From an uncultured Alphaproteobacteria bacterium (lineage in GTDB: Bacteria; Pseudomonadota; Alphaproteobacteria; SHVP01), in the NCBI GenBank assembly GCA_964350495.1, contig CAYGKG010000004.1, positions 1,900 to 65,899 of the forward strand: a stretch of DNA of 64,000 bases, in the 5' to 3' direction. Below the pieces are notes generated by a model. That model saw nothing but the letters and a program-made list of their open reading frames with translations. It searched no databases and had not been told where the DNA came from. Positions 9,681-45,247 of this stretch are shown here, in pieces; positions within the stretch are counted from its first letter, which is position 1, and each line of letters begins with the position of its first letter. A program made the position numbers and the translations under genes.

Positions 9681-9714
9681 CTTCCCGGGCTTGACTCGAC
9701 CCACCCGCGGCGTG

Positions 9715-9890
9715 TGACAATGGCTGCGACGGTTCCCCGCAAGGGGTGAAAAGGGAACACGGTGAGGCTTAGGCCGAAACCGTGGCTGCCCCCGCAACTG
9801 TAAGCGACGAGCTGGCGTCCGAACGTGCCACTGGGAAACCGGGAAGGCAGGGCGTTGGCGGTGACCCGCGAGCCAGGAGACCTGCCGTCA
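9715..9890 (+). ncRNA. Cobalamin (AdoCbl) riboswitch
   Basis: Conserved elements are read directly: AAGGGAAcacGGTGAgg, GCTGCCCCCGCAACTGTAAGCG, the B12-box GCCACTGGGAAaccGGGAAGGC, and the closing GAGCCAGGAGACCTGCC. It lies in the 5' leader of btuB. Confidence 0.85.
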
Positions 9891-10091
9891 ACGTCACCCA
9901 TCCGTCGATCGGGGCGCTCGGTGGTGCGGATTTCCGTAGTGGTGGCGACGAATGTACGTCGTAGCTGGGGGTCCGCGAGATGGAAGCTTTTGCCTTTCCG
10001 GAGAGACAAACCGCCAAGAATCGGGTGCCAGAGCTTTGTCTGGCCTTCGACGCTGCGAACGTACGCCACGTTCATCGCTTCGGAGGTCTTC

Positions 10092-12038
10092 ATGAAAACA
10101 GTAACGACAGCCACGGCGCTCGCCATGGGTCTACTTGCCGCTAGCCCGATCGACACCGCCCGGTCCCAGGGGTTGTTGCCTGAGACGATCGTCACCGCGA
10201 CTCGGTTGCCGACACCGCGGGAGCGCGTCGCCAGTTCGGTGACGGTCATTACCGCGGCGGATATCGCGGCCAAACAACAACGAACGTTGGTGGACGTGCT
10301 CGGCGACGTGCCGGGTCTACAGGTTGTGCAGTCGGGCGGGTTGGGCAAACAAACCTCGGTGTTCTCGCGCGGGAGCAACAGCAATCACACGCTGATCGTC
10401 ATCGACGGCGTCGAGATGAGCGACGCCAGCACGCCGAACGGGGCGTTCAATTTTGCCCATCTTTTGTCTGCAGACATCGAACGCATTGAAATCGTTCGCG
10501 GCCCGCAAAGCACGTTGTACGGGTCCGATGCGATCGGTGCGGTTATCAATATCACGACGAAACTGGGGTCCGGCCCTGCGCAGTATTTCGTGCATGGCGA
10601 AGGCGGGTCCTTCGACACCATCGCCGGCACGCTCCAGGCGCAGGGAAGCCGCGGGCGTCTTCAGTATGCCCTTGGGACAAGCTACCTCGATAGCGACGGC
10701 GAGAGCGTGACGCCCGCGCGCATTCGTGCCCTGCAGGCAGGCGCTACCGAGGAAGATGACGGTTACACCCAGCGTTCGGCATCGGTGCGTCTCGCCTATG
10801 AGGCCTCCGAAAGCGTGAACTTCGGTTTCGCGCTGCACCACATCAGAACCCGGTCCGAAACCGATCAACCGATCGAAGACCCCGATGCCTACGAACGGAC
10901 CCGTCAGTGGTTTGGCCGGGCGGACGCCACATTGGATTTCTTTGGCGGACTCATGGAATCGATTGTCGGCGCGTCGGTGACCCGCCACACACGGGATTCG
11001 TTCAATGTGCCTGGGATCGCTAACACGTTGCAGCGGAGCGACGATCTGGGAACAAAAACCAAGTTCGAAGTCCAAAACAGTTTCTTCGCGATTGACGATC
11101 ACGTTCTAACCTTGGGCCTGGAAACCGAACTCGATTCGCTGAAGAACGTGCAGTTCTCCAACTTCAGCGGTTTCACAATCGTGGGGACGACCGATTCGGA
11201 CGCCCGGACGAACGCGGCCTACGTCCAGGATCAGTTTGTGCTCGGCGAACGGGTGTTCGGCACTGTCGGCATTCGCTACGACGATCACGACACGTTGGGA
11301 TCGAAACTCACTTTCCGGTTAGCGCCGGTCGTCGCCTTTCCTGAGCACGGGCTTCGCCTCAAAGGAGCGGTCGGAACGGGGTTTCGTGCGCCCGCCTTGT
11401 TTCAGCTGTTCGGCAACACGCGTAGCAGCAACGGCGGTGTCTTTACCGGCGATCCCAATCTGCGCGCCGAAGAAAGCATGGGGTGGGAAGTTGGCTTCGA
11501 GCAAACGATGTTGGCCGGCAAGGTCGTGATGGGATCGACTTATTTCGATCAAGAAATCAAGAACCTGCTTGAGACGAAGTTCACAGGTTCGAACTCCACC
11601 GTCATTAACCTAGCGCGCGCGGACATCTTTGGGTTCGAGTCGTTTATCAGTGCAAGCGTGACTCCGACAGTTACGGTCAGGCTCGACCACACTTTCACCC
11701 GTGCCGAAAACAAAGCCACAGGTGGAGACTTGCGGCGGCGGCCTAAACAAAAACTTAGCGCCGACGTTCGCTACCAAGCGAGCGACCGGTTGTCGGTTGT
11801 CGGCGGTATGCGGTTTAACGGGCCGGGAAAGGACGTTTCCGGAAATCCGCTTGCGTCGTCCCAAGAGATCAACAAGGGAAGTCACACCCTCGTGGACGTT
11901 TCGGCAAATTACGACGTCAACGACGACGCGTCGCTATTCGGCAGGATCAATAACCTGCTGAACCGGAAGTATGAGACTGCCGATGGGTTGGCAGGGGCGA
12001 GCCGCGCGGTTGTCGTCGGCGCCCGCCTGAGGTTCTGA
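10092..12038 (+). CDS. btuB: TonB-dependent outer-membrane cobalamin receptor
   Basis: Signal peptide MKTVTTATALAMGLLAASPIDTARSQ. A TonB-box-like ETIVTATR follows, then the plug and barrel domains. The C-terminal residue is aromatic (RLRF). GGAGG lies upstream. The gene is downstream of the B12 riboswitch. The ORF-track start at 9825 would cut through the riboswitch. Confidence 0.85.
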   Translation: MKTVTTATALAMGLLAASPIDTARSQGLLPETIVTATRLPTPRERVASSVTVITAADIAAKQQRTLVDVLGDVPGLQVVQSGGLGKQTSVFSRGSNSNHTLIVIDGVEMSDASTPNGAFNFAHLLSADIERIEIVRGPQSTLYGSDAIGAVINITTKLGSGPAQYFVHGEGGSFDTIAGTLQAQGSRGRLQYALGTSYLDSDGESVTPARIRALQAGATEEDDGYTQRSASVRLAYEASESVNFGFALHHIRTRSETDQPIEDPDAYERTRQWFGRADATLDFFGGLMESIVGASVTRHTRDSFNVPGIANTLQRSDDLGTKTKFEVQNSFFAIDDHVLTLGLETELDSLKNVQFSNFSGFTIVGTTDSDARTNAAYVQDQFVLGERVFGTVGIRYDDHDTLGSKLTFRLAPVVAFPEHGLRLKGAVGTGFRAPALFQLFGNTRSSNGGVFTGDPNLRAEESMGWEVGFEQTMLAGKVVMGSTYFDQEIKNLLETKFTGSNSTVINLARADIFGFESFISASVTPTVTVRLDHTFTRAENKATGGDLRRRPKQKLSADVRYQASDRLSVVGGMRFNGPGKDVSGNPLASSQEINKGSHTLVDVSANYDVNDDASLFGRINNLLNRKYETADGLAGASRAVVVGARLRF

Positions 12039-12040
12039 GC

Positions 12041-12868
12041 GTGGCGGCACGACGGTCCCTGATGCTTGCCATCGTGTTGGTAGGGGCTTTGGCCGTCGCG
12101 TCGACTTCCGCCGGCGCACAGGTGGCGATGCGAGTCGTTTCGATCAATCTGTGCGCCGACCAGTTGGTGTCGCTGTTGGCGAATCGTGAAAGCATTCTGT
12201 CTGTCACCCACCTATCGGCCGACCCCTCGATCTCCTATGTGGCGAGCCGGGTTACGGACATACCGGTCAACTACGGTCGGTCCGAAGAAGTACTGGCGCT
12301 GCGACCGGATCTGGTTGTGGCCGGACGCTTTGCCGCTCGACCGGCAGTCGCCATGCTCCAACGGTTTGGCGTCGAGGTTGTCGATCTCCCGATCCCCGAA
12401 TCCTTTGCCGACATTCGCGCCCAGGTCCGCTTCCTGTCGCGGCGACTTGGTGTCGCGCCCCGCGGTGAAGAAATGGTCGAGGAAATGGACCGTCAGTTGG
12501 GCGCCATTTCGATCGGCGACCGCCCGGGGCCACGGGCGTTAGTGCTGGGAGTCCGTGGGTTTACCAGCGGTACTGGCACTTTGGTCGATGAGGTGCTTGC
12601 GGCGGCCGGTCTTCGGAATGTTGCGGTCGAGCTAGGCATTGACGGCTACGGTCAAATCGGATTGGAGGAAATTCTTCGGGCAGACCCGGAGATCGTCGTG
12701 ATCAATCAACCGACGGCGGCCTTTCCGTCGCTTGCCCGCGATGTGCTGGCGCACCCTGCGCTTCGGCATTTCGGCGGCCGGATCATTCAGATCGACCCTT
12801 CGTTATGGACCTGCGGCGGCCCCTATACCGTGGAGGCTGTGACGTTTCTGGCCCGGGCGACGCAATGA
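12041..12868 (+). CDS. btuF: Periplasmic cobalamin-binding protein of an ABC transporter (BtuF/FecB-like)
   Basis: GTG start followed by a signal peptide (MAARRSLMLAIVLVGALAVASTSAGA), then a class III periplasmic-binding-protein fold. It sits inside the btuB-btuCD operon. Confidence 0.75.
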   Translation: MAARRSLMLAIVLVGALAVASTSAGAQVAMRVVSINLCADQLVSLLANRESILSVTHLSADPSISYVASRVTDIPVNYGRSEEVLALRPDLVVAGRFAARPAVAMLQRFGVEVVDLPIPESFADIRAQVRFLSRRLGVAPRGEEMVEEMDRQLGAISIGDRPGPRALVLGVRGFTSGTGTLVDEVLAAAGLRNVAVELGIDGYGQIGLEEILRADPEIVVINQPTAAFPSLARDVLAHPALRHFGGRIIQIDPSLWTCGGPYTVEAVTFLARATQ

Positions 12869-13899
12869 CCGCGGTCTCCCCGGAACCGTCCGCGACCCCG
12901 CCGCGCGCACGCTCGGACGCAGGGTTGATCGTTGCACTCGGGCTTCTCGTCTTGGTCCTAGTGTTCGTTTCGATGGTTGTTGGGCGCGTCCCCCTCGCTT
13001 TCATCGAGACCGTGGGTCAGTTGATGACGGGTACCGACACAACCGCTGCCTTGATCTTGAGCGAGATTCGTTTTCCTCGGGCGCTTCTCGCCGCGTTGGT
13101 TGGCGCGACCTTAGGGGCTGCCGGCGCCGCGATGCAGGGCCTGCTAAGGAACCCATTGGCCGAACCCGGCATTCTCGGAATCTCGGCATCGGCCGGCCTC
13201 GGCGCCGTCATAGCCCTCTATTTCGGTCTTGCTCAAGCATCGAGCTATGCGCTGCCGTTTGCCGGCATGACAGGCGCGCTGATAGCGGTCCTGCTGACCT
13301 ATGTGTTGGCGGGGCGGGATGCGAGCATTCTGACGCTGATACTGGCGGGCGTCGCCCTGAATGCGTTTGCGGGGGCGCTGACCTCCCTTGCCCTCAATCT
13401 TGCACCTAGCCCCTATGCGGCGCTTGAAATCGTTTTCTGGATGCTGGGATCGTTGGCCGACCGGTCCTTCGATCACGTCAGAATCGCTCTGCCCCTCATG
13501 GTCGTGGGAGCCGTCCTTTTGGCTGGAACCGGGCGGGCGCTCAATGCGCTGTCGCTTGGGGAGGATGTCGCTCGCTCGCTCGGGGTCAATCTGCGTGTCG
13601 TTCGCGCGCGGCTTATTGTCGGAACTGCCTTCGCCGTCGGCGCCGCGGTGTCGGTCTCTGGAACGATCGGGTTCGTCGGCCTTGTGGTTCCGCATCTCCT
13701 CCGACCTTTGGTCGGGCATGAGCCCGGTCGGCTCATGCTTCCCAGCGCCCTCGGCGGCGCGGCGCTTGTGTTGGCGGCCGATATCGCGACGCGTCTCGTC
13801 CCGGTCGAGCCTGATCTTCAGTTGGGGGTGGTGACGGCGATCGTCGGTGCGCCGTTCTTTCTCTATCTCCTATTGCATATTCGCCGGTCCATGCGATGA
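12865..13899 (+). CDS. btuC: FecCD-family ABC permease (BtuC-like)
   Basis: About 10 TM helices in FecCD layout. Its ATG overlaps the btuF stop (ATGA). Confidence 0.8.
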   Translation: MTAVSPEPSATPPRARSDAGLIVALGLLVLVLVFVSMVVGRVPLAFIETVGQLMTGTDTTAALILSEIRFPRALLAALVGATLGAAGAAMQGLLRNPLAEPGILGISASAGLGAVIALYFGLAQASSYALPFAGMTGALIAVLLTYVLAGRDASILTLILAGVALNAFAGALTSLALNLAPSPYAALEIVFWMLGSLADRSFDHVRIALPLMVVGAVLLAGTGRALNALSLGEDVARSLGVNLRVVRARLIVGTAFAVGAAVSVSGTIGFVGLVVPHLLRPLVGHEPGRLMLPSALGGAALVLAADIATRLVPVEPDLQLGVVTAIVGAPFFLYLLLHIRRSMR

Positions 13900-31342: not shown

Positions 31343-33250
31343 ATGAGAGAACCCCTCAACCCGCCGACCGGACGAACCCTTGGTCCGGTCTCCGATCTCG
31401 AACGCCACCTTCCGTCGGACTGGTGGCAGACCCTCTTTAATTCGCTCTACCTCAAGACCGATGGCGATGTCGTGGAGAACGCGGCCAACACCAAGACCGA
31501 CATCGATTTGGTGCTCAAGAGCGTGGGTCTCGAGCCGAACGACCACGTACTGGACCTCTGTTGCGGACAAGGACGGCACAGTCTTGAACTGGCTCGGCGC
31601 GGTTTCCGGCATGTCACCGGCGTGGACCGGTCGCGCTACCTAGTGCGGCTCGCGCGGACGCGCGCGCGCAAGGAAGGGTTGAATGCGGCGTTTCGCGAAG
31701 GCGATGCGCGCACCGTTCGACTGAAAGCGGCGTCGTTCCACTGCGTCATCATGATGGGGAACTCCTTCGGCTATTTTGACCGGGAGGAAGACGACGCGGC
31801 CGTTCTTGAAACGGCGAAGAAAGCGCTGGTCTCGCGTGGCACCCTTGTGATGGACATCGCCGACGGCGAATGGATGAAGGACCGTTTCGAGCGGCGTTCT
31901 TGGGAGTGGGTCGACCAGAATCACTTCGTTTGCAGGGAGCGCAATCTGGCGCGCGACGGTAGGCGCCTGATCTCGCGCGAAGTTGTGGTCCACGCCGAGC
32001 GTGGCGTATTGGCCGACCAGTTCTATTCCGAACGCCTGTATACGCGCAAAGAGATTCAGGAACTGATGGAGTCGGTTGGCTTCACGCAAGTTCGTTTCCA
32101 CGCTGAGGTGCAAAGCGATTCGTCCCGGAACCAAGACCTCGGGATGATGGCGCATCGCTTGTTTCTCACGTCCGAGGCACCAGCGAAGTCGACCGTGACT
32201 CGAAAGCGCGAGGTTCCCTTCCCCGAGGTGACCGTTCTGATGGGCGATCCGCGGTTGCCCGACAGCGTAAAACTGGGTGGACAATTCAATCCCGAGGACT
32301 TGGACACGATCGAACGCTTGAAAGAAGCCCTTGGCGAGATGGAGGGCGTCTCCTTCAAGTATCTCGACAACCATCAGTCGCTCTGGACGGAGTTGCGGAC
32401 GAACCAGCCAAGTTTCGTCCTCAATCTGTGCGACGAAGGATTCAATAACGACGCGTTTCTCGAGCTGCACGTTCCGGCGATGTTGGAAATCCTCGGTGTG
32501 CCCTATTCCGGGGCGGCACCGGCAGCTCTGGGGTTGTGCTACGACAAGTCGTTGGTCCGCGCCGTCGCGCAGTCTCTCGACGTCCCAGTCCCGTCGGAGA
32601 CGTTCTTCGATCCCAGCGATCAGGCCGCGACGCTCCCCGGCATTTTCCCCGCGATGATCAAGCCGAATTTTGGCGATTCCAGTATCGGTATTACGAAGAA
32701 CGCGGTCGTCCGAACTCCGGAAGAGGCAATCAACTACATCAACGAGCTGCGTGAGCTCCTACCGAATCGGCCCTTGCTCGTCCAAGAGTACCTGGAGGGT
32801 GCCGAATACTCGGTTGGCGTCATTGGCAATCCCGGCTTCGACTTCCACGTCATGCCGGTACTGGAAGTCGACTATACCGGCCTGGACGCGGGGTTGCCGA
32901 AGATCTTGGGCTACGAGTCGAAGTGGGATCCGTCCTCGGCGTACTGGACTCAGATCAAGTACAAAGAAGCGGTGCTGTCGGAGGAGGATCGGCGACTTCT
33001 CGCCGACAATTCGCGTGCGTTGTTCGATCGGCTCGGCTGCCGCGACTACGCGCGCTTCGACTTCCGGGCGGATGCGGCGGGACGAATCAAGCTGCTTGAG
33101 GTCAATCCGAACCCCGGTTGGTCGTGGGATGCGAAGATGAACATCATGGCGGGGTTCGAAGGCTTGAGGTACTCGGACCTGCTTCGGATGATTGTCGAAG
33201 CCGCGCAGGCGCGTGTTGCGGCGCAGCGGGGGTCGGTTCCCGCAACCTAG
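31343..33250 (+). CDS. Fusion protein: N-terminal class I SAM-dependent methyltransferase + C-terminal D-Ala-D-Ala-ligase-like ATP-grasp domain
   Basis: N-terminal SAM-binding motif I VLDLCCGQGRHSLELARRG, with post-I acidic residue and motif II (FHCVIMMGNSFGYF). C-terminal ATP-grasp elements include MIKPNFGDSSIGI, LVQEYLEGAEYSVGVIGNPG and the LLEVNPNPGWSWDAKMN Mg/ATP loop typical of Ddl-like ligases. Confidence 0.8.
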   Translation: MREPLNPPTGRTLGPVSDLERHLPSDWWQTLFNSLYLKTDGDVVENAANTKTDIDLVLKSVGLEPNDHVLDLCCGQGRHSLELARRGFRHVTGVDRSRYLVRLARTRARKEGLNAAFREGDARTVRLKAASFHCVIMMGNSFGYFDREEDDAAVLETAKKALVSRGTLVMDIADGEWMKDRFERRSWEWVDQNHFVCRERNLARDGRRLISREVVVHAERGVLADQFYSERLYTRKEIQELMESVGFTQVRFHAEVQSDSSRNQDLGMMAHRLFLTSEAPAKSTVTRKREVPFPEVTVLMGDPRLPDSVKLGGQFNPEDLDTIERLKEALGEMEGVSFKYLDNHQSLWTELRTNQPSFVLNLCDEGFNNDAFLELHVPAMLEILGVPYSGAAPAALGLCYDKSLVRAVAQSLDVPVPSETFFDPSDQAATLPGIFPAMIKPNFGDSSIGITKNAVVRTPEEAINYINELRELLPNRPLLVQEYLEGAEYSVGVIGNPGFDFHVMPVLEVDYTGLDAGLPKILGYESKWDPSSAYWTQIKYKEAVLSEEDRRLLADNSRALFDRLGCRDYARFDFRADAAGRIKLLEVNPNPGWSWDAKMNIMAGFEGLRYSDLLRMIVEAAQARVAAQRGSVPAT

Positions 33251-33314: not shown

Positions 33315-35456
33315 ATGGCAAAGTTTGGGACGCCGACGCTGGCCGAATGGCAGGCCCTGGCTGAAAAAGAACTCAAGGACGAATCGTTAGACGGGTTGGT
33401 TTGGCACACGCCCGAAGGGATCGCCGTCAAACCGCTCTACACCGAGGCTGACACCACGGACCGTGCCGCCGGTCTTCCCGGGTTCGCGCCCTATTTGAGA
33501 GGGCCGCGGGCGACGATGTACGCGAACCGTCCGTGGACCATTCGGCAATATGCCGGGTTTTCAACCGCCGACGAGTCCAACGCCTTTTACCGGCGGGCCC
33601 TGGCAGCCGGGCAAATGGGGCTGTCGGTCGCCTTCGATTTGGCGACCCACCGCGGGTATGACTCCGACCATCCGCGGGTCGAGGGCGACGTCGGCAAAGC
33701 CGGGGTCGCGATTGATTCGGTCGAAGACATGAAGGCCCTCTTCGATGGCATCCCGCTGGATCGGGTCAGCGTCTCCATGACGATGAATGGCGCGGTGCTG
33801 CCGGTGCTCGCGGGCTATATCGTTGCGGCCGAAGAACAGGGCGTATCGGCCGAGGAGCTCTCTGGCACGATCCAGAACGACATTCTCAAAGAATTCATGG
33901 TGCGCAACACCTACATCTACCCGCCGGAAGCGTCGATGCGGATTGTTGCCGACATCATCGGCTACACGGCACGCGAGATGCCGCGGTTCAACTCGATATC
34001 GATATCCGGCTATCACATGCAAGAAGCGGGGGCGACGCTGGTTCAGGAGCTTGCGTACACGCTTGCCGACGGGTTGGAGTACGTCAAAGCGGCGATCGCG
34101 ACCGGTCTTGACGTCGATTCTTTTGCGCCCCGGTTGTCGTTTTTCTTTTGCATCGGCATGAATTTTTTCATGGAGGTTGCAAAACTAAGGGCGGCTAGGT
34201 TGCTGTGGGCCGAGCTGATGCAGGAATTCGGTCCGAAGGACGTTCGATCCCTGTCGTTGCGGACTCATTGCCAAACCTCCGGTGTCTCGCTGACCGAACA
34301 GGACCCGCACAACAACGTCGTGCGAACCGCCTATGAAGCGATGGCGGCGGTTCTGGGCGGGACACAGAGCCTCCATACGAATGCCTTCGACGAAGCGCTT
34401 GCGTTGCCCTCAGAGCTTTCGGCCCGGATTGCCCGCAACACCCAGCTCATTCTCGCCGAGGAAACCGGCATTACACATGTAGTCGACCCCCTTGGCGGGT
34501 CTTACTACGTCGAGGCGCTTACCGACTCGCTGGTCCATGAGGCTCGGGCGTTGATCGATGAAGTCCAAAAACTCGGTGGAATGACCAAAGCGGTCGCCCA
34601 GGGCTTGCCAAAACTGCGAATCGAGGAGTCCGCAGCCAAAAAGCAGGCGCGCATCGATCGCGGTGAAGAAGTGATTGTCGGTGTCAATAAGTACCGGCTC
34701 GATAAAGCGGAGGAAATCGATTTGCTGGAGGTCGACAATCAGCGTGTGCGGCTACAGCAGATCGAAAGACTGAACGCGATCAAAAACAGCCGCAATGCGG
34801 CACAAGTCGACGCCACGTTGGAGGCGCTGCGCGCCGGCGCACGGGGTGACGGTAATCTTCTTGCCCTCAGTGTCGAAGCCATACGCGCCCGGGCGACGGT
34901 CGGCGAAGTTTCTTCTGCACTTGAAGATGTGTTCGGGCGTCACCGCGCGCAGACGATGGCGGTTTCCGGCGTGTACGGCGACGCCTTTGTCGATGACGAA
35001 GGGTTTTCACAAACACGCGAGGCGGTCGAACGCTTTGCCACCCGAGAAGGCAGGCGCCCTCGAATTCTGGTCGCGAAATTGGGGCAAGACGGCCATGACC
35101 GGGGCGCCAAGGTTATCGCGACCGCCCTAGCCGATATCGGTTTCGACGTCGATATCGGCCCTCTATTTGCGACGCCCAACGAAGCTGCGAAACAAGCGGT
35201 CGAGAACGACGTCCACGTTATCGGCATTTCCTCGCAGGCAGCGGGGCACAAAACGCTGGTTCCGCAATTGGTCGCTGCGCTGAAGGAAGAGGGCGCCGGG
35301 GATATCGTTGTGGTGGTCGGCGGGATTATTCCGCCCAAGGACTACGACTTCCTCTATAAAGCCGGCGTTGGGGCTATTTTTGGCCCGGGTAGCAATATCG
35401 TTGCCGCAGCAGATCGAATCCTCACGCTCCTCGGCGATAACCGGGCCGCGGCTTAA
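33315..35456 (+). CDS. scpA: Methylmalonyl-CoA mutase, large (catalytic alpha) subunit with C-terminal B12-binding domain
   Basis: Characteristic N-terminus [43 protein letters not shown]. The TIM-barrel substrate-binding region follows. The C-terminal Rossmann B12 domain carries DxHxxG ([11 protein letters not shown]). Confidence 0.9.
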
Positions 35457-35469
35457 TGGCGCGGTTGTT

Positions 35470-35874
35470 CTAGGGTTTATCGTCTTGCGCTCGCCGTGCG
35501 GCGGTCCGCACGACTCGTGTCCGATTGACCTGGGTCGCCCGCGCGCCGTTCTCGGGCGCTGCGCCCGCTGATGTCGCCGATGGCCATGGGGACATGGGCC
35601 AAGGCCGCAGTTCCGAGCCAAAGGTCTCGAAAGCGGCGACCTGCCGAAAATAGTGGCCAAGGCCCGTGCCAAAGGCGGCAAGGCGTGGCACGGAACGCCC
35701 CGAAATCAACTTGAACCCAAGTTGGATTAAGACGACCGCCGCGCCAACCCAGATCGCAAGATAAAACGCGACGGCATAGAGCAGCATGAAGACCACGCGA
35801 ACCCAGACCTCTGAGTTCGTTAGGTTGCCGGCGATTTCATTGTCTCGGTCGGCCATCGGTATCCTAGTCGCCAA
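35470..35874 (-). CDS. Small membrane protein of unknown function
   Basis: 134 aa with two hydrophobic helices (VWVRVVFMLLYAVAFYLAIWVGAAVVLIQLGF). It is convergent with the mutase gene and has coding-like composition. Confidence 0.45.
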   Translation of the reverse strand: MATRIPMADRDNEIAGNLTNSEVWVRVVFMLLYAVAFYLAIWVGAAVVLIQLGFKLISGRSVPRLAAFGTGLGHYFRQVAAFETFGSELRPWPMSPWPSATSAGAAPENGARATQVNRTRVVRTAARRAQDDKP

Positions 35875-36012
35875 ATTTCTCGGATGTTAACGGGTCGTTT
35901 AGCGGACGTTGCCATGATTCCAGGGCATTGAACAACGCCCAGCCGTCACTGTAACGCCAGATTTGGGCGACGTAGGGGATTCTGGTCTATCATGGCGTTC
36001 AGGTGAATACGT

Positions 36013-37224
36013 ATGGCAAGAGTTCCCGTTAGGCGGGCACGCGGAGACGCGCCGACGATCGCCGATCCGCCCTGGGTCGACGATGTGCGGCCGTCGGACG
36101 ATCCGCCGCCGCCGATTGAGCCCGACTGGGCGCGCGCAGTCCGTCCTTCGGACGGTGCCGCCTCTGAACCCTTCGAGCCCGATTGGGCTCAAGACCGCCC
36201 CGAGGACCGCCGGGCGCCAAGACCGATCGACCCGCCCTGGGCCGCTGAATCGGCTACCGATCGTGAGGACACCCTGCGGGCCGCCTTAGCTGAGGCTGCG
36301 CCGCCAGATCCGCCTTGGGCGCGCGCCGCCGCTAGACCGCGGCAGACAAAGCCGATTGACCCCCCTTGGGTCGAAGACAATCGCCCCACCAACGATCCAT
36401 TGCCGCCGATCGAGCCCGGTTGGGCGGCCGCGACGGCGGACACCGATGACGAGGCGCGCCAACCCGCCGATCCGCCGTGGGCGAACGCCGCCCCCGTTCG
36501 GGCGCCGGTGATCCTGCGTGGGCCGATCGATCCGCCCTGGGTCCCGGACGCCATTTCCGAAGCCCTCGACGCCAAAGAGGAAGCAGCGCGGGCTGCCTTC
36601 GAGCCGGCTTGGGCGGCCAACCCGGCGGTTCGGGTTCGTCGCGGCCCGCTTGCCCCGGTGGAGCCGTCATGGGCCACCGCCGGCGCGACGCCGGCGCCAG
36701 AACCTGCAGGGTTGTTTGATCCGGGGTGGGAGCGCAATCCGTCGCTCGCTTCCCTTCGACCGTCGCCGATCGAGCCCGATTGGGCGTCCGAAAGCAGCGA
36801 GGCGCGCGACGATCAAGCGATCGAGCTGTTCGACCCCGACTGGGAGGAGGCCGGATCCCTTCGGACGGCTGATACGTTGCCGCCGATGGAGCCCAGCTGG
36901 GCTGTCGAGACGCGCAGCGAGGTCGAGCAAGCGAGATCGGACCCGTTCGATTCGCGATATGAGGAGAATACCATTTCGTTGCCCGACAAGACCATCGTCC
37001 GGAGAGGTGCACGGCGGTTGAAGGACCTTGCATCGCAGGTGTCGTTGAATCCGTTTGGCCGCGCCAAGCGAAAGAGCGAGGCGCGCGCGCTCGACCGCCA
37101 AAAACTCATTGCCGAAGCGATGCGGATTCGTAGCGAGACCCGTGAGGCCCTCGGCGAGGATACAGTCAATGCACTGTACCGCGGCATTATGGGGACCGAT
37201 CCTCCGGCAGGCGAGAACCGCTGA
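36013..37224 (+). CDS. Acidic Pro/Trp-rich tandem-repeat protein (about 16 copies of an [I/F]-[DE]-P-x-W-[AEV] motif), unknown function
   Basis: The translation shows a ~20-residue periodicity: IADPPWV..IEPDWA..EPDWA..IDPPWA..DPPWA..IDPPWV..IEPGWA..DPPWA..IDPPWV..EPAWA..EPSWA..DPGWE..IEPDWA..DPDWE..EPSWA. It ends in a basic C-terminal segment. The gene sits between the mutase and meaB. Confidence 0.65.
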   Translation: MARVPVRRARGDAPTIADPPWVDDVRPSDDPPPPIEPDWARAVRPSDGAASEPFEPDWAQDRPEDRRAPRPIDPPWAAESATDREDTLRAALAEAAPPDPPWARAAARPRQTKPIDPPWVEDNRPTNDPLPPIEPGWAAATADTDDEARQPADPPWANAAPVRAPVILRGPIDPPWVPDAISEALDAKEEAARAAFEPAWAANPAVRVRRGPLAPVEPSWATAGATPAPEPAGLFDPGWERNPSLASLRPSPIEPDWASESSEARDDQAIELFDPDWEEAGSLRTADTLPPMEPSWAVETRSEVEQARSDPFDSRYEENTISLPDKTIVRRGARRLKDLASQVSLNPFGRAKRKSEARALDRQKLIAEAMRIRSETREALGEDTVNALYRGIMGTDPPAGENR

Positions 37225-37312
37225 CGCCCATGCGGCCTGACGTTACCGAGCTGGTCAAACCGGAAAGTAGAGTGTCGCACTATTTCAATTGGACGTGGCG
37301 TCGAGCGACCCC

Positions 37313-38350
37313 ATGAACGCGCCTAACCATACGGGCGATGACGCGCTCAGGTCGTCGATCCTGGCCGGCGATCGACGCGGCCTCGCGCGTGGGATCACGC
37401 TGATCGAATCGGATCGGCCCGACCATCAGTCGCGCGCCGAAAACCTGATCACGTCGCTATTGCCCCAAACCGGTCGCGCGACGCGGCTGGGAGTTTCCGG
37501 CGCGCCAGGTGCAGGGAAGTCGACCTTCGTCGAAGCGTTCGGCATGCATGTCGTGACTGCCGGCCATCGGGTAGCGGTCCTCGCGATCGATCCCTCCAGC
37601 CGCCTATCGGGCGGTGCGATCCTGGGCGACAAGACCAGAATGGACGAGCTAAGCAGGCACCCTGCGGCTTTCGTCAGGCCGTCCGCGGCCGGTCGAACGT
37701 TGGGTGGGGTTGCCCGCCGCACCCGCGAGGCGGTCCTTCTTTGCGAAGCCGCGGGTTATGACATCGTGATCGTAGAAACGGTGGGCGTCGGCCAATCGGA
37801 AGCGACCGTCGCAGACATGGTCGATCTGTTCCTTCTCCTCATCGCCCCGGGCGGTGGGGACGAGCTTCAAGGGATCAAGCGCGGAATCGTGGAACTGGTC
37901 GATTTGATCGTCGTTAATAAGTGCGACGGCGATCTTGTCCCGGCCGCGGGGCGAATTGCCGCTGACTACGCCGGCGCCCTGGGACTCCTACGGGCGCAGT
38001 CGCAGCACTGGAAACCGGAGGTCGTCCAATGTTCGGCGTTGGAGCGTAAGGGAATTGACGACGTTTGGCGCACGGTCGAACGGTGCGCCGAAACGCTGCG
38101 CAGCGCAGGCGATTTTTCCCGGCGGCGGAAGCGTCAACTTACCGACTGGTTTTGGCAGGAGATCACCGGCGGGGTCATGGACGCATTGCGGCGCGACGAC
38201 GCGGCCAACGCGGTTGCCAAGCGGCTCGAACAAGACGTGATTGCCCGAAATCTGTTGCCCCCGGCCGCCGCCCGTCAGGTAAGGGACACCTTTTTTCGGC
38301 CCGCCGCGGTCGCCCACGACGACGCCAAAACTGGCCGTTCGCCGGGATAG
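37313..38350 (+). CDS. meaB: Methylmalonyl-CoA mutase-associated G-protein chaperone (MeaB/ArgK)
   Basis: P-loop GVSGAPGAGKSTFVEAFG, switch regions, and the NKxD motif VVNKCD. Start is assigned to MNAPNHT. Confidence 0.9.
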   Translation: MNAPNHTGDDALRSSILAGDRRGLARGITLIESDRPDHQSRAENLITSLLPQTGRATRLGVSGAPGAGKSTFVEAFGMHVVTAGHRVAVLAIDPSSRLSGGAILGDKTRMDELSRHPAAFVRPSAAGRTLGGVARRTREAVLLCEAAGYDIVIVETVGVGQSEATVADMVDLFLLLIAPGGGDELQGIKRGIVELVDLIVVNKCDGDLVPAAGRIAADYAGALGLLRAQSQHWKPEVVQCSALERKGIDDVWRTVERCAETLRSAGDFSRRRKRQLTDWFWQEITGGVMDALRRDDAANAVAKRLEQDVIARNLLPPAAARQVRDTFFRPAAVAHDDAKTGRSPG

Positions 38351-38483
38351 CCCCTTGCTGGATAGGGAGGACTCCTGCTTTGACGTATCGTGGCGCTGCA
38401 AACTAAGCGTTTGATTTTAAAAGAATATGTTGCCAATTTGGGGGCGCGGTGCGGTCGAGGAGACTAAGCCGGCGCAAGGTACC

Positions 38484-41799: not shown

Positions 41800-43644
41800 T
41801 TAATGTCGAGCCCGGGCTTGGCCGGGGTCTTCGTCGAACAGGTCGGCAAGTTGCTCCATCATCGCGCCGCCGAGTTGTTCGGCGTCGACGATCGTCACGG
41901 CGCGGCGATAGTACCGATTGACGTCGTGCCCGATTCCGATGGCGATGAGTTCGACTGGCGATCGGTTCTCGATCCAATTGATCACTTCGCGCAGATGTTG
42001 GTCTAGGTAGTTGCCCGGATTAACCGACAGCGTCGAATCGTCGACCGGAGCGCCATCGGAGATCACCATGAGGATGCGCCGCTGCTCGGGCCGGGCCAAT
42101 AGCCGTTGGTGGGCCCATGTGAGCGCTTCCCCGTCGATATTTTCTTTGAGCAGTCCTTCGCGCAGCATCAGGCCCAGCCCACGCCGCGCGCGCCGCCAGG
42201 GTTCGTCGGCGGACTTGTAGACGATGTGGCGCAGGTCGTTCAGACGACCTGGGTTGAGCGGTTTGCCCTCCGACAGCCATTTCTCGCGAGCCTGGCCGCC
42301 CTTCCAGGCCACCGTTGTGAAGCCAAGAATTTCCACATTGACGCCGCAACGTTCGAGCGTCCGGGCGAGGATGTCCGCGCACATAGCAGCCACCGTGACC
42401 GGCCTACCGCGCATCGAGCCTGAATTGTCGATTAGCAACGATACGACGGTATCTCGAAAGTCGGTCTCGCGTTCCATCTTGTAGGACAGGGAATAGAGCG
42501 GATTGACGATCACCCGAGCCAGGCGGGCGGCGTCGAGTTGACCTTCCTCCAGGTCGAAATCCCAGGCCCGCTGCTGCTTGGCCATGAGCCGACGCTGGAG
42601 CCGATTGGCGAGCCTGCCGACCGCACCTTGCAGGTAGTGCAACTGCTGATCCAAATGGCGACGGAGGCGGGCGAGTTCGTCCGGATCGCACAGGTCCGAG
42701 GCATGAACGATTTCGTCGAATGCCGTGGTATAGGCGCGGTAGGTCGGTTCGTTGCGCCGCCGGCTAGGGTCGTCCTGCCATTGTTCGGGGCGCCCCCCAG
42801 GCTCTCCTTCGCCGGCCATTTCGCGTCGTTCCTCGGCACTCGTGCCGGCCGCCGATTCGGCGGCATCGTCCATCGACCCATCGGCCGCGTCGTCGCCGAC
42901 CGATTGCATCGCGCCTTCGGCTTCGCCGTCGCCTTCGTCGGATTGCCCCTCTTGTTCCTGATCGGCGTCGTCGGATTCCTCGGCTTCGTCCGGATCCGGC
43001 TCAAGGGTATCTTCTTCGGCCAGGTCGAGGTGGGCGATCAGGCGACGGGCAACCTTGGAGAACGCCGCTTGATCTCCAACCGTCTCGCATAGTGCGTCGA
43101 TGTCTTCGCGGGCAGGACCATCGAGGGTCTCACGCCAGGCGTCCACGATCGCCCGCGCCGCTTCGGGCGCTTCGGCGCCGGTGAGTTTCTCGCGTAAAGC
43201 CAGGCGCACAGCCTCCGACAGGGGCAGGTCATCTGGGCTACGAGTGTCCTCAGGTCGAGCCCGCTCGTAATGCTCGGCGAGCGCAGCCTCAAGGTTCCTC
43301 GCGACGCCTTCATACTGCAGTGCGCCGATAGCTTCGATCCGGGCTAGTTCCGCCGAGTCATAGACCGCTTGTGCAACCGCGCCGTCAGGACGTCGGCGCG
43401 CATGCAGCTTTGCGTCGTGGTGTCTTAGTCGGAGTGCAAAGGAATCGGCGACACCGCGAACCTGGCTCACCTCGTTGGTGTTGAGATCGCGGGAGGGTTG
43501 CGGAAGACGAACGCTGTCTTCCCTGATCCCGGGCGATTCGACGCCGAACGACACCTCGAGGTCTTTGACCGCAGAAATGGCCCGCGTAGCAGCGCTAACT
43601 GCCCGTTTGAAGTTCTCGACCGGGCTGCGGGTCTCGCTCGACAC
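41800..43644 (-). CDS. cobT: Aerobic cobaltochelatase subunit CobT (acidic region + C-terminal vWA domain)
   Basis: N-terminus (V/M)[22 protein letters not shown]...RLPQPSRD is typical of CobT. A long Asp/Glu-rich segment follows. The C-terminal vWA/MIDAS region is [19 protein letters not shown]. The GTG start abuts the cobS stop. Confidence 0.85.
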
Positions 43645-44649
43645 TTAGTGTGGTTTTGCGAGGGCGGCGCTTTCCGGCAAATCTTCGCCGAAGGACCGCT
43701 GGTAGTATTCCGCAATGAGCGGTCGTTCCATCTCGTCGCATTTGTTCGCGAAAGTGAGGCGGAAAGCGAACCCGACATCGTTGAAAATCTGGGCGTTCTC
43801 GGCCCACGTGATCACCGTGCGCGGCGACATGACGGTCGAAATGTCGCCGGACTGAAAGCCGGTGCGCGAAAGCTCCGCGACGCGGACCATCTTGGCGACG
43901 ATCTTTCGCCCATCCTCGGTGTCGTACTCCGGAACCTTGGCGAGCACGATGGCGACCTCTTGCTCGTGCGGCAGGTAGTTCAAAGTCGCCACCAGATTCC
44001 AGCGGTCCATTTGACCTTGGTTGATCTGTTGCGTTCCGTGATAGAGGCCGGTTGTGTCGCCCAAGCCGATAGTATTCGCTGTCGCGAACAGGCGGAACGC
44101 AGGGTGGGGACGGATCACTCGATTCTGGTCAAGGAGGGTCATCTTGCCCTCGGCCTCGAGGACTCGCTGGATCACGAACATCACATCGGCGCGTCCGGCA
44201 TCGTACTCGTCGAAGACCAACGCGGTCGCCGTCTGCAACGCCCACGGCAGAATTCCTTCGCGAAATTCCGTGATCTGTTTGCCGTCGCGGATCACGATGG
44301 CGTCCTTGCCGATGAGGTCGATTCGGCTGATGTGGCTATCGAGGTTCACGCGGATGCAAGGCCAGTTCAACCGCGCCGCGACCTGCTCGATGTGAGTGGA
44401 CTTCCCGGTACCGTGCAGGCCTTGGATCATGACCTTTCGGTTGTACTTGAACCCGGCCAAGATCGCGGTCGTCGTGTCGTGGTCGAAGCGATAGGCCTCA
44501 TCGATATCGGGCACATATTCGTTCGGTTGCGAAAACGCGGGCACGAGCATGTCGGTATCGAGACCGAATACCTGCCGAGCGGATACATCGATGTCTGGAA
44601 TGTGGTTAGGATCCTTAGCTGCGGCCAAGGCGCTTTCGTGGCTCTCCAA
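43645..44649 (-). CDS. cobS: Aerobic cobaltochelatase subunit CobS (AAA+ MoxR-like ATPase)
   Basis: [19 protein letters not shown] is the CobS N-terminal signature. Walker A is [16 protein letters not shown]+ sensor motifs are present. Confidence 0.85.
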
Positions 44650-44671
44650 GTTTTTCGTCCCGATTCCTGGT

Positions 44672-45247
44672 TTAGACGTGCCCTGCAGACAGCAGGTACG
44701 AGTAGGCTTCGTTGATTCGTTTCAAACGCTCTTCGGCCTCTTTATTCCCGCCATTCAGATCGGGGTGGAACCGTTTCGCCAATTCCTTATAGCGGAATTT
44801 GACCTCCTGAGGAGTCGCCTCTTCGGGGAGGCCCAGCCGCCGCAATGCCTTGGCGACTGGCCCCGGAACGCGCCGCTTGGCTTGCCGAAGGCGAACACCG
44901 TCGATCCCGAGCGGGTTGTCGCGGAAGAGGCCGAACTGGTCGTCGATCCCTTCGAAGATCGCTTTCTTTCGGTCTGCGCCTCTGGTCTTGCCGGTGACGC
45001 TCCAGGTTGGCCGATGCCACGTGTTGGTGTTGTGGCGATAATCTTCGACCTCAGCGTCCGACATGCCTTCGAAATAGTTCCACGATTTGTTGTATTCGCG
45101 CACGTGTTTGAGGCAAAACCAGTGATATTCCGACGGCTCGCCACGGGATTTGGGCGCACGATGGGCCCCTTCGGCGTCGCACCCCTCGTGGTCGCACAGG
45201 CGTTTGGACGTCGATTCGCGTATCGTTTCGCGCGGGTCAAAGGTCAT
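44672..45247 (-). CDS. J-domain protein with N-terminal Cys/His-rich segment (conserved partner of cobS in alphaproteobacteria)
   Basis: The C-terminal J domain carries the HPD motif ([33 protein letters not shown]). The N-terminus has [10 protein letters not shown]...HWFCLKH. Confidence 0.75.

What the first reader, a model, noticed from the sequence alone, without database searches (positions are those of the whole stretch)
36013..37224. Trp/Pro tandem-repeat protein inserted between methylmalonyl-CoA mutase and its MeaB chaperone
A 403-aa ORF lies exactly where mutase operons normally proceed straight to meaB. It encodes about 16 evenly spaced copies (period about 19-21 aa) of an acidic [I/F]-[D/E]-P-[P/D/G/S/A]-W-[A/E/V] motif. 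These sit in a Pro/Asp/Glu/Arg-rich sequence that is predicted disordered, and a basic C-terminal tail follows. The repeat periodicity is also visible at the DNA level (gatccgccctgg.../gagcccgactgggc... units). I do not recognise this as any described family. Periodic short Trp-containing motifs in a disordered scaffold suggest a multivalent binding platform. Its operon position makes a function linked to mutase/B12-cofactor handling or localisation a testable idea. The tandem DNA repeats may also be copy-number variable.
Basis: seen in the sequence. Interest (0 to 1): 0.75.

Follow-up and report, generated by a model that had tools for sequence, protein, structure and literature searches.

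The report
Trp-motif repeat protein upstream of meaB
A real, conserved gene encodes a mostly disordered protein with 15 evenly spaced acidic Pro-x-Trp motifs; it is a clade-specific enlargement of a previously undescribed ~70-residue helical protein encoded just upstream of the B12-chaperone gene meaB, and its function is unknown.

Summary
ORF 36013-37224 (+) encodes 403 aa. All 15 Trp sit in P-[IFVM]-[DE]-P-x-W-[AV] motifs spaced 17-26 aa apart, which no shuffle approaches. The gene is under purifying selection (dN/dS 0.16-0.25), with motifs conserved (0.88) and linkers not (0.55). It matches nothing in Pfam, NCBIfam or PDB, and a profile search of 1.84 billion proteins finds only its own small family, all from uncultured Alphaproteobacteria.

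- The mutase does not run straight into this gene. A minus-strand DUF4389 gene lies between them, so the unit is X-meaB, transcribed divergently from DUF4389.
- It is not a foreign insertion. The last ~78 aa form a helical module that exists alone as 61-80-aa proteins at the same locus in a sister clade, 4-23 nt before meaB in most lineages. The repeat array is an N-terminal expansion built by hierarchical duplication.
- The DNA is not a tandem array. Copy number is 15 in most members, with rare in-frame block losses or gains. One lineage lost the array but kept the C-module under selection.

Best reading, inferred and not shown: a meaB-operon accessory protein whose C-module is the core, with the array acting as a dispensable multivalent binding platform.

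The parts
36013..37224 (+). Whole gene 'X': 403-aa protein made of an N-terminal W-motif repeat array plus a C-terminal helical module
   Evidence: ORF listing and translation. There are 10 orthologs at 42-96% identity. dN/dS is 0.16-0.25.
36001..36006 (+). Shine-Dalgarno-like AGGTGA, 6 nt upstream of the ATG
   Evidence: Read directly from the sequence. The block around it is conserved in 5 of 6 aligned orthologous intergenic regions.
35985..35998 (+). Conserved intergenic block GGTCTATCATGGCG, containing TATCAT at 35988-35993; a possible -10 element of an X-meaB promoter
   Evidence: Alignment of six orthologous DUF4389/X intergenic regions. The promoter role is an inference. The consensus scan did not call it.
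35906..35920 (.). Second conserved intergenic block ACGTTGCCATGATTC between the divergent DUF4389 and X genes
   Evidence: Mostly invariant columns in all six aligned loci. Function unknown; possibly an operator or promoter element.
36013..36942 (+). Repeat array, aa 1-310. It holds 15 copies of P-[IFVM]-[DE]-P-x-W-[AV], with Trp at aa 21, 39, 58, 76, 102, 119, 137, 156, 176, 200, 220, 239, 257, 277 and 296. Linkers are acidic and Pro/Ala/Arg-rich.
   Evidence: Motif count and spacing. Shuffle tests. Per-position conservation: W 1.00, P 0.99, D/E 0.98, +1 A/V 0.91, linkers 0.55. AlphaFold gives coil with mostly pLDDT 40-65. No hydrophobic segment; maximum Kyte-Doolittle 19-residue window is 0.47.
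36064..36288 (+). Super-unit A (aa 18-92): four motifs followed by a short helix, LRAALAE
   Evidence: 47% identical over 83 aa to super-unit B, E=1.5e-15. The 74-nt DNA family D2 recurs at 36064, 36358 and 36718. AlphaFold predicts a helix at 81-92.
36358..36600 (+). Super-unit B (aa 116-196): a duplicate of A, ending in the most conserved element of the array, PVILRGPIDPPWVPD..SEAL.A.EE, plus a helix
   Evidence: Invariant columns 163-189 in alignment A1. AlphaFold predicts a helix at 179-196. This unit is duplicated again in L009.
36937..36948 (+). Degenerate 16th motif S-D-P-F (aa 309-312)
   Evidence: D310 and F312 are invariant in A1. It lies 16 aa after the last Trp.
36988..37221 (+). 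C-terminal module (aa 326-403): a basic amphipathic helix (GARRLKDLASQV), then NPFGRAKR, then a long helix LIAEAMRIRSETREALGEDTVNALYRGIMG. This is the ancestral core of the protein.
   Evidence: AlphaFold predicts helices at 326-343, 347-380 and 382-393, with pLDDT 82-92 from about aa 351 and 60-74 for the first helix (for the module alone). dN/dS is 0.05-0.06. Stand-alone 61-80-aa homologs sit at the same locus. The module is kept under selection after the array was lost in L033/L043.
37289..38350 (+). meaB (G3E GTPase chaperone of the mutase), 64 nt downstream on the same strand; the probable operon partner
   Evidence: Pfam PF03308 E=5.8e-106 and NCBIfam NF006958. No terminator-like site lies between X and meaB.
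38392..38411 (+). Terminator-like hairpin plus T-run after meaB; the likely end of the X-meaB unit
   Evidence: Consensus scan only, and the total count is not above the shuffle expectation. Weak evidence.
35470..35874 (-). DUF4389 gene (predicted membrane protein), divergent from X; it separates X from the mutase
   Evidence: Pfam PF14333 E=1.8e-20. It is present in the same position and orientation in every long- and short-form locus that extends far enough.
33315..35456 (+). Methylmalonyl-CoA mutase, single-chain type of 713 aa with a B12-binding domain
   Evidence: Pfam PF01642 and PF02310; NCBIfam NF006944 at 1245 bits.

Best explanation
X is a bipartite cytoplasmic protein.

Its core is the C-terminal ~78-aa helical module. 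This module is a previously undescribed small protein that one alphaproteobacterial group encodes immediately upstream of meaB on the same strand, probably co-transcribed with it. In most short forms the two genes are probably also translationally coupled.

In the window's clade the small gene was extended at its 5' end by hierarchical duplication. A ~19-codon unit grew into a ~4-5-unit block, and that block was then duplicated. The result is a 310-aa acidic, disordered arm displaying 15 (+1 degenerate) copies of the short linear motif P-Phi-[DE]-P-x-W-[A/V].

Proposed mechanism (inferred): the C-module docks on its ancestral partner. The most economical candidate is MeaB or the MeaB-mutase complex. 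The arm then acts as a multivalent platform whose Trp motifs each insert into a pocket of a folded partner, or associate with each other and with Arg. This would cluster or tether many copies near the chaperone-mutase machinery.

The arm is an accessory gain, not essential to the core function.

Shown here: the gene is real; motifs are conserved and linkers are not; the array is an expansion or appendage of a small syntenic protein; the array is dispensable.

Inferred only: disorder, co-transcription, the identity of any partner, and any link to B12.
For: Real coding gene:
- dN/dS is 0.25 (against L013) and 0.16 (against L011). For the C-module it is 0.05-0.06.
- An SD-like AGGTGA lies 6 nt before the ATG.

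Motif array:
- 15 of 15 Trp lie in [DE]PxW. No shuffle among 200,000 exceeded 6, and the spacing CV is 0.126.
- Motif columns are 0.88 conserved against 0.55 for linkers, Mann-Whitney p=5e-25. Each repeat keeps its own subtype (DPPW, Phi-EPxWA or FDPxWE) across orthologs.

Disorder:
- AlphaFold predicts coil at low pLDDT over the array and helices only in the C-module.
- The array is 18% Pro and 18% hydrophobic residues, with no transmembrane segment.

Origin by duplication:
- aa 18-92 and aa 116-196 are 47% identical, E=1.5e-15.
- A 74-nt family recurs at 294- and 360-nt spacing.

Small ancestral module:
- Stand-alone proteins of 61-80 aa (P0017, P0027/28/30, P0032, P0033/34) match only the C-module.
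- They lie in the arrangement mutase(+)/DUF4389(-)/small ORF(+)/meaB(+). The gap to meaB is 4-23 nt in loci L014-L022, L034-35 and L040-42, and 176 nt in L037.
- In MeaB and mutase trees the long forms make one clade and the short forms the sister clade.

Dispensability of the array:
- In L033 and L043 the array is deleted or frameshifted and evolves about neutrally (90.2% DNA identity).
- The C-module ORF in the same loci stays intact, with pS 0.118 against pN 0.021. meaB is intact in L043.

Operon:
- Same strand as meaB, 48-90-nt gaps in long forms, and no terminator-like site before meaB.
Against: - No direct evidence exists for any interaction. No complex prediction or expression data were available.
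- Gene order over more than 15 kb is conserved across all these loci (Suv3-like helicase, mutase, DUF4389, X, meaB, L28, UPRTase, phytase-like, CobT/S). Synteny with meaB could therefore be inherited rather than functional.
- Related small modules (P0016/P0031; marginally P0037) are not next to meaB on their contigs, which are short.
- No candidate Trp-motif-binding domain is apparent in the neighbourhood.
- The polarity (short to long) rests on midpoint rooting and on the internal-duplication signature, not on an outgroup.
- Fairly conserved linker lengths (mostly within 1-4 aa at 42-55% identity) are more than independent motifs strictly need. They could indicate a regular polymeric partner or a folded repeat.
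Confidence: 0.4

Rival explanations
1. Self-associating 'stickers-and-spacers' scaffold. The 15 evenly spaced Trp (stickers), together with the ~30 Arg of the array (cation-pi partners) and the acidic Pro-rich spacers, drive condensate formation. The C-module recruits its client (MeaB/mutase or another protein) into that condensate. This is a sub-variant of the best explanation in which the array's partner is itself.
For: - Aromatic residues are extremely regularly spaced, with CV 0.126.
- Trp is the only aromatic residue class that is conserved.
- The array contains 32 K/R and 60 D/E in 310 aa.
- AlphaFold predicts coil.
- Eukaryotic Trp-repeat assemblies such as the NANOG WR domain show that Trp repeats can drive assembly (PMC9106587, found).
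Against: - The flanks of each Trp are near-invariant ([DE] 0.98, P 0.99, +1 A/V 0.91), and subtype conservation is repeat-specific. This looks like recognition by a defined pocket, not generic stickers.
- The net charge of about -28 disfavours homotypic coacervation without a basic partner.
Confidence: 0.15
2. X is unrelated to mutase/B12. The C-module is a general small adaptor: its N-terminal basic amphipathic segment could bind membrane, or the divergently encoded DUF4389 membrane protein. The array binds some regularly spaced cellular polymer or oligomer. Adjacency to meaB is inherited gene order.
For: - The entire neighbourhood, including unrelated housekeeping genes, is syntenic across the clade.
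- DUF4389 is as constantly adjacent (divergent) as meaB.
- Module relatives P0016/P0031 lie next to a pyridine-nucleotide-disulfide oxidoreductase, with no meaB on their 1.5-3-kb contigs.
- Short forms start with basic/aromatic amphipathic segments: MRNPLRWFRRWR, MASRFLSRLFG, MAKRGIIARLLG.
- Linker lengths are fairly conserved.
Against: - 4-23-nt same-strand spacing to meaB in three of the four short-form lineages suggests co-expression. L037 has a 176-nt gap.
- No membrane segment is present in X.
- The P0016 and P0037 groups are distant, and the P0037 match is marginal (E=0.036).
Confidence: 0.3
3. The array is a folded structural tandem repeat, for example a solenoid or polyproline-II-type stack with one buried Trp per ~19-aa turn, rather than a disordered motif display.
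For: - The ~19-aa period is regular, with fairly conserved linker lengths and one invariant Trp per unit.
- About half of the residues have intermediate pLDDT (50-70) rather than very low values.
- The alignment given to AlphaFold was shallow, at 11 sequences.
Against: - No secondary structure is predicted in the repeats.
- Linkers are poorly conserved in sequence (0.55), rich in Pro/Asp/Glu/Arg, and only 18% hydrophobic.
- In-frame loss of 3-5 units (L031, L027) and a gain (L009) are tolerated.
- No Pfam repeat family or PDB relative was found.
Confidence: 0.1
4. The open frame is a chance product of GC-rich, repeat-containing non-coding DNA and is not translated.
For: - The region has 68% G+C and several long overlapping ORFs on both strands.
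- No expression data are available.
Against: - dN/dS is 0.16-0.25 with saturated synonymous change.
- The frame, start and stop are conserved in about 20 loci down to 42% identity.
- Block deletions are in frame.
- An SD-like sequence is present.
- In contrast, the genuinely decayed copies L033/L043 show frameshifts and stops.
Confidence: 0.01

Closest known systems
Eps15 / epsin DPF and DPW motif arrays (eukaryotic endocytic scaffolds binding the AP-2 appendage). The comparison draws on my general knowledge, not on a tool result.
   Same: A long disordered region carries many copies of an acidic Asp-Pro-aromatic tripeptide-like motif separated by variable linkers. This is a multivalent, low-affinity display attached to a folded or helical anchoring part. 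X even has one true DPF (aa 310-312).
   Different: No homology: nothing was found by Pfam, PDB or a 1.84-billion-protein profile search. The motif is [DE]-P-x-W with an extra residue and conserved P-Phi before it and A/V after it. The organism is bacterial, with no AP-2-like partner. Spacing is far more regular in X.
GW182/TNRC6 W-motifs (Argonaute and CCR4-NOT binding); PMC5314787, found
   Same: Multiple single-Trp motifs in a disordered protein, where each Trp is thought to insert into a hydrophobic pocket of a folded partner. Function scales with motif number.
   Different: GW182 Trp residues are flanked by Gly/Ser/Thr and are irregularly spaced. In X the flanks are Pro and Asp/Glu and the spacing is regular. 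There is no sequence relationship, and no Argonaute lies in the neighbourhood.
Bacterial repeat scaffolds of enzyme assemblies, such as carboxysome CsoS2 and CcmM (from general knowledge)
   Same: A bacterial, largely disordered, repeat-built protein encoded in the operon of the enzyme system it organises. Its repeats arose by internal duplication.
   Different: Those repeats are basic, Trp-poor and bind Rubisco or shell proteins. X is acidic and Trp-based, no microcompartment genes are nearby, and no interaction has been shown.
Accessory proteins of G3E GTPase metallochaperones: MeaB-mutase-adenosyltransferase, UreG-UreEFD, HypB-HypA (from general knowledge)
   Same: A small protein encoded tightly upstream of a G3E GTPase gene in the same orientation, which is the usual signature of an accessory subunit.
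   Different: No described MeaB partner resembles the module, and PDB searches at E<=10 and E<=1 found no MeaB- or MMAA-related entries. The module is restricted to one alphaproteobacterial group, whereas meaB is widespread.

Membership tests
Any curated protein family (Pfam-A, NCBIfam) or solved structure | Significant profile match | tested here: not met
   No Pfam hit at E<=0.01 for the whole protein, and none at E<=10 for the C-module. No NCBIfam hit at E<=0.1. PDB profile searches gave nothing at E<=1 for A1 and only noise (E>=0.14) for A2.
Short-linear-motif array in a disordered scaffold | Motif residues conserved while intervening sequence diverges | tested here: met
   Conservation is 0.88 for motifs against 0.55 for linkers, p=5e-25, with W 1.00, P 0.99 and D/E 0.98.
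Short-linear-motif array in a disordered scaffold | Host region intrinsically disordered | tested here: inconclusive
   AlphaFold predicts coil with pLDDT mostly 40-65, but from a shallow alignment. Composition is 18% Pro and 18% hydrophobic. No dedicated disorder predictor or experiment was available.
Short-linear-motif array in a disordered scaffold | Identified folded partner that binds the motif | not testable with these tools
   No complex prediction or interaction data were available, and no obvious binding domain lies in the neighbourhood.
Eps15/epsin-type DPF/DPW motifs | Motif is D-P-[FW], bound by the AP-2 appendage | tested here: not met
   The motif is [DE]-P-x-W, with one residue between Pro and Trp, in 15 of 15 copies. 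There is only one DPF. The host is bacterial.
meaB-operon accessory protein | Same-strand, closely spaced gene next to meaB, recurring across independent lineages | tested here: met
   Long forms have 48-90-nt gaps. Three short-form lineages have 4-23-nt gaps, and L037 has 176 nt. The caveat is that the whole neighbourhood is syntenic.
meaB-operon accessory protein | Physical or functional interaction with MeaB or the mutase | not testable with these tools
   Needs pull-down or two-hybrid assays, multimer modelling or genetics.
Variable-number tandem DNA repeat (contingency-type locus) | Near-identical head-to-tail DNA units, with copy number differing between close relatives | tested here: not met
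   TRF finds no array at score >=30. Only 18-20-nt cores are alike, at 73-90%. The 96%- and 73%-identical orthologs have the same 15 copies.
Structural ~20-aa aromatic repeats (e.g. choline/cell-wall-binding repeats) | Profile match; secreted or surface protein | tested here: not met
   No Pfam repeat match. No hydrophobic N-terminal or transmembrane segment; the maximum 19-residue hydropathy window is 0.47.
Ribbon-helix-helix DNA-binding proteins (considered for the C-module) | Profile similarity to an RHH protein (Arc repressor; sequence recalled from memory) | tested here: not met
   hhalign probability 0.2%, E=0.29. A variable 20-25-aa linker separates the basic N-terminal segment from the helix in short forms.

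The most novel reading that the evidence does not exclude
The ~70-aa helical module is an unrecognised third component of the MeaB/methylmalonyl-CoA-mutase cofactor-chaperone system in a group of Alphaproteobacteria. In the window's clade it has evolved a 15-valent Trp-motif arm that assembles the B12-dependent mutase machinery into a higher-order cluster or condensate. That would be a bacterial, non-compartment 'metabolon scaffold' built from a de novo amplified short linear motif.
Probability: 0.15. Interest if true: 0.8.

Novelty: new variant of a known kind. Interest (0 to 1): 0.55.

Why it matters
If the C-module really is a MeaB partner, it would add a component to a well-studied B12 chaperone system (MeaB/MMAA with the mutase) that has been described as complete.

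The array is a clean natural example of how a bacterial small protein acquires a highly regular multivalent motif display by hierarchical duplication:
- The ancestral-like short state survives in a sister clade.
- The expanded state is under selection.
- A secondary loss has left the core intact.

That series makes the question 'what does valency add?' directly testable by swapping natural variants with 0, 10, 12, 15 and 16 copies.

The limits are that the family is confined to uncultured Alphaproteobacteria and that no function has been demonstrated.

Tried and rejected
- Tandem Repeats Finder on 35400-37400 at minimum score 30 returned nothing. The DNA-array idea was dropped.
- Pfam, NCBIfam and PDB sequence searches of the whole protein, the C-module and the small homologs gave no meaningful hits. 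The best was RqcH at E=0.14, which is noise.
- A profile search of 1.84 billion cluster representatives found only the family itself, fragments of it, and three small module proteins. P0011 (436 aa, with PAS domains) matches only its first ~100 aa and looks like a chimeric assembly.
- tblastn against the plasmid and phage collections found no match.
- Rfam on the whole window found nothing in or near the gene, so there is no riboswitch or leader in front of X.
- A ribbon-helix-helix fold for the C-module was rejected (hhalign probability 0.2%).
- The idea that X and meaB decay together was rejected. meaB is frameshifted in L033 but intact in L043.
- Five literature searches covered meaB-linked hypothetical or small proteins, DUF4389, DPPW/EPDW/PxW motifs and Trp-motif repeats. 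They found nothing on this protein. 'DPPW' hits are the unrelated catalytic motif of N6-adenine methyltransferases.
- No fold search was run. Both AlphaFold models are low-confidence coil or isolated helices (pTM 0.19 and 0.32), so matches would be meaningless.
- The consensus promoter scan did not call a promoter for X. The TATCAT block is proposed only from conservation.
Full report
**1. The observation**

- The ORF at 36013-37224 (+) starts with ATG and encodes 403 aa. It contains 15 Trp, and every one lies in a [DE]-P-x-W tetrapeptide.
- With flanks, the motif is P-[I/F/V/M]-[D/E]-P-x-W-[A/V].
- Successive motifs are 17-26 aa apart (mean 19.6, CV 0.126).
- In 200,000 composition-preserving shuffles no sequence had more than 6 such motifs. 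Random placement of 15 residues never gave so regular a spacing.
- An invariant S-D-P-F at aa 309-312 is a degenerate 16th copy.
- The array (aa 1-310) has 60 D/E, 32 K/R, 57 Pro and 57 Ala. The last 93 aa are mildly basic.
- The neighbours are a single-chain methylmalonyl-CoA mutase (33315-35456) and MeaB (37289-38350).
The mutase therefore cannot share a simple operon with it.
- Tandem Repeats Finder reports no DNA array. Only the codon-constrained 18-20-nt cores are alike, at 73-90%.

**2. It is a real gene**

- Ten orthologs at 42-96% identity were found among 5.8 billion proteins.
- Seven loci were found in 185,579 species genomes, all MAGs labelled Alphaproteobacteria or Proteobacteria. 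Metagenome contigs gave more.
- Nei-Gojobori dN/dS is 0.25 against the 96%-identical copy and 0.16 against the 73%-identical one. For the last 93 codons it is 0.05-0.06.
- An AGGTGA lies 6 nt before the ATG.
- In 16 non-redundant full-length sequences, the seven motif positions have a mean majority fraction of 0.88 against 0.55 for linkers (p=5e-25). W is 1.00, the preceding P 0.99, D/E 0.98 and the following A/V 0.91.
- Each repeat keeps its own flavour across orthologs: DPPW; Phi-EPxWA; FDPxWE.

**3. Structure**

- AlphaFold2 with the family alignment gives coil and low confidence over the array.
- Short helices are predicted at 81-92 and 179-196.
- A helical C-terminus is predicted at 326-343, 347-380 and 382-393, with pLDDT 82-92 from about aa 351.
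- The module alone is predicted as helices, not as a globular fold.
- There is no hydrophobic segment, so the protein is probably cytoplasmic.

**4. No known relatives**

- Pfam, NCBIfam and PDB gave nothing.
- A full HMMER profile scan of 1.84 billion cluster representatives returned nine hits. These were family members, fragments, and three small proteins (61-69 aa) matching only the C-terminal ~45 residues.
- Plasmid and phage collections gave nothing.
- Literature searches gave nothing on this protein.

**5. The key result: the C-terminus is an older, stand-alone small protein at the same locus**

- Searching with the C-module profile recovered several groups of 61-80-aa proteins.
- Four groups lie in exactly the same arrangement, mutase(+) / DUF4389(-) / small ORF(+) / meaB(+): P0017, P0027/28/30, P0032 (NCBI MAG GCA_009694165.1) and P0033/34.
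- The gap to meaB is 17-22 nt for P0017 and P0027, 4 nt for P0034 and 176 nt for P0032.
- A survey of all fetched loci shows two forms, both in this arrangement wherever the contig extends far enough. The long form has 338-416 aa and 10-15 PxW motifs (plus one ORF cut by a contig end). The short form has no PxW motifs.
- In MeaB and mutase neighbour-joining trees the long-form loci form one clade and the short-form loci its sister.
- Short forms share with X aa 326-403 a basic amphipathic N-terminal segment, a variable linker, and the helix L[IV]xEAMRIRxExRExLGE..(x)LY....G.
- Two further groups are not next to meaB on their short contigs, so the module is not exclusively meaB-linked. These are P0016/P0031, and the marginal P0037 (E=0.036).

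**6. How the array arose and how it varies**

- aa 18-92 and aa 116-196 are 47% identical over 83 aa (E=1.5e-15). Each consists of four motifs ending in a short helix.
- A 74-nt DNA family recurs at 36064, 36358 and 36718.
- The array was therefore built hierarchically: a unit, then a block, then block duplication. The duplications are old, because all 15 positions are orthologous across the clade.
- Later changes are rare in-frame block events:
  - L031 lost repeats 6-8 by recombination between PIDPPWV cores, leaving 12 copies.
  - L027/P0006 has 10 copies.
  - L009 duplicated the RGPIDPPWVPD...FEPDW unit.
- One lineage inside the long-form clade (L033, L043, and the fragments P0012-14, P0018, P0021, P0023) lost the array. 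There is a large deletion fusing repeat 1 to repeat 9, plus frameshifts and stops.
- The decayed stretch is 90.2% identical between the two contigs, which is about the synonymous rate. The C-module remains an intact ORF, with pS 0.118 against pN 0.021 (7 synonymous and 4 non-synonymous changes).
- meaB is intact in L043 and frameshifted in L033, so there is no consistent co-decay.
- The natural series thus says the module is the core and the array is a dispensable accessory.

**7. Transcription**

- X and DUF4389 are divergent, with a 138-nt spacer. The spacer holds two conserved blocks: ACGTTGCCATGATTC at 35906-35920, and GGTCTATCATGGCG at 35985-35998, which includes a TATCAT.
- No terminator-like hairpin lies between X and meaB. 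One follows meaB at 38392-38411, but this is weak, consensus-only evidence.
- I infer an X-meaB transcription unit separate from the mutase.

**8. Mechanism**

What is shown:
- The gene is selected.
- It carries a conserved multivalent Trp motif on variable linkers.
- A helical core module is tightly coupled in position to meaB.
- The array is dispensable.

What is inferred:
- The module docks to MeaB or the MeaB-mutase complex, or possibly to the DUF4389 membrane protein.
- The arm displays 15 equivalent Trp 'pegs' to a folded partner or to itself, clustering components.

With about 12-residue linkers, adjacent motifs can span at most roughly 4-6 nm (my estimate from residue counts). This would suit neighbouring subunits of an oligomer or polymer, and it may explain why linker lengths are fairly conserved. 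I give the full statement a confidence of 0.4. The structural and evolutionary parts alone are near 0.9.

**9. Comparison with known systems**

- The closest analogues are non-homologous. They are the Eps15/epsin DPF/DPW arrays, the GW182 W-motifs (PMC5314787), Trp-repeat assemblies such as NANOG (PMC9106587), and bacterial repeat scaffolds such as CsoS2.
- X shares the logic of many copies of a tiny aromatic motif on a disordered arm. It does not share their motif, partners or ancestry.
- It fails membership of every curated family tested (see the membership table).

**10. Verdict**

- The finding is real, and the family is undescribed. It is better described as 'a small meaB-upstream helical protein that, in one uncultured alphaproteobacterial clade, grew a 15-valent Trp-motif arm' than as 'a repeat protein inserted in the mutase operon'.
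- Function remains unknown, and the distribution is narrow.
- Interest is 0.55. At the family level it is new. At the level of kind, a multivalent short-linear-motif scaffold or operon accessory protein, it is a new variant.

Noticed in passing
window 35470-35874 (-); same position in L001-L043: A DUF4389 gene (predicted membrane protein of unknown function) is always wedged, on the opposite strand, between the methylmalonyl-CoA mutase and the X/meaB pair. This holds in both long- and short-form clades. Its constant association with a B12-mutase locus is unexplained. The only paper in the searched library that mentions DUF4389 is unrelated.
   Followed up: partly
window 31343-33250 (+): A 635-aa fusion of a SAM-dependent methyltransferase domain (aa ~58-180) with a D-Ala-D-Ala-ligase-like ATP-grasp domain (aa ~320-625) lies directly upstream of the mutase. 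It is present in L002, L003 and L011, absent in L001, and replaced by an unannotated 264-269-aa gene in short-form loci.
   Followed up: no
window 9713-9903 (+) and 9825-13899: A cobalamin riboswitch (127 bits) precedes a TonB-dependent receptor, a periplasmic binding protein (Peripla_BP_2) and a FecCD permease. This is a BtuB/F/C-like B12 uptake operon. CobS/CobT also lie at ~41800-44700, so the organism both imports corrinoids and processes them.
   Followed up: partly
L033 4405-5183 and 5244-6219; L043 532-1320: A sublineage carries a pseudogenised repeat array with the same shared frameshifted tail (…SGRQSRV) in independent samples, so this is a natural lineage and not an assembly error. 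In L033 meaB itself is frameshifted near position 5995, while the mutase is intact.
   Followed up: yes
L023 1900-2085; L024-L026; L038 6001-6255: Small (61-84 aa) proteins share the helix motif LIxEA...REAIGEE..LDK but lie in other contexts. One group is next to a pyridine-nucleotide-disulfide oxidoreductase and an unannotated 140-aa gene. The other is downstream of a cytochrome-c peroxidase (MauG-like). This hints at a wider, undescribed family of small alphaproteobacterial helical proteins.
   Followed up: partly
P0011 (436 aa): The first ~100 aa are a typical long-form N-terminus, but the rest is a Lys/Asn/Glu-rich coiled-coil and PAS protein of very different composition. It is probably a chimeric metagenome contig and not a real fusion.
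   Followed up: no
window 35906-35920 and 35985-35998: Two short blocks in the DUF4389/X divergent intergenic region are conserved down to loci whose X proteins are ~50% identical. They are candidate shared operator or promoter elements.
   Followed up: partly
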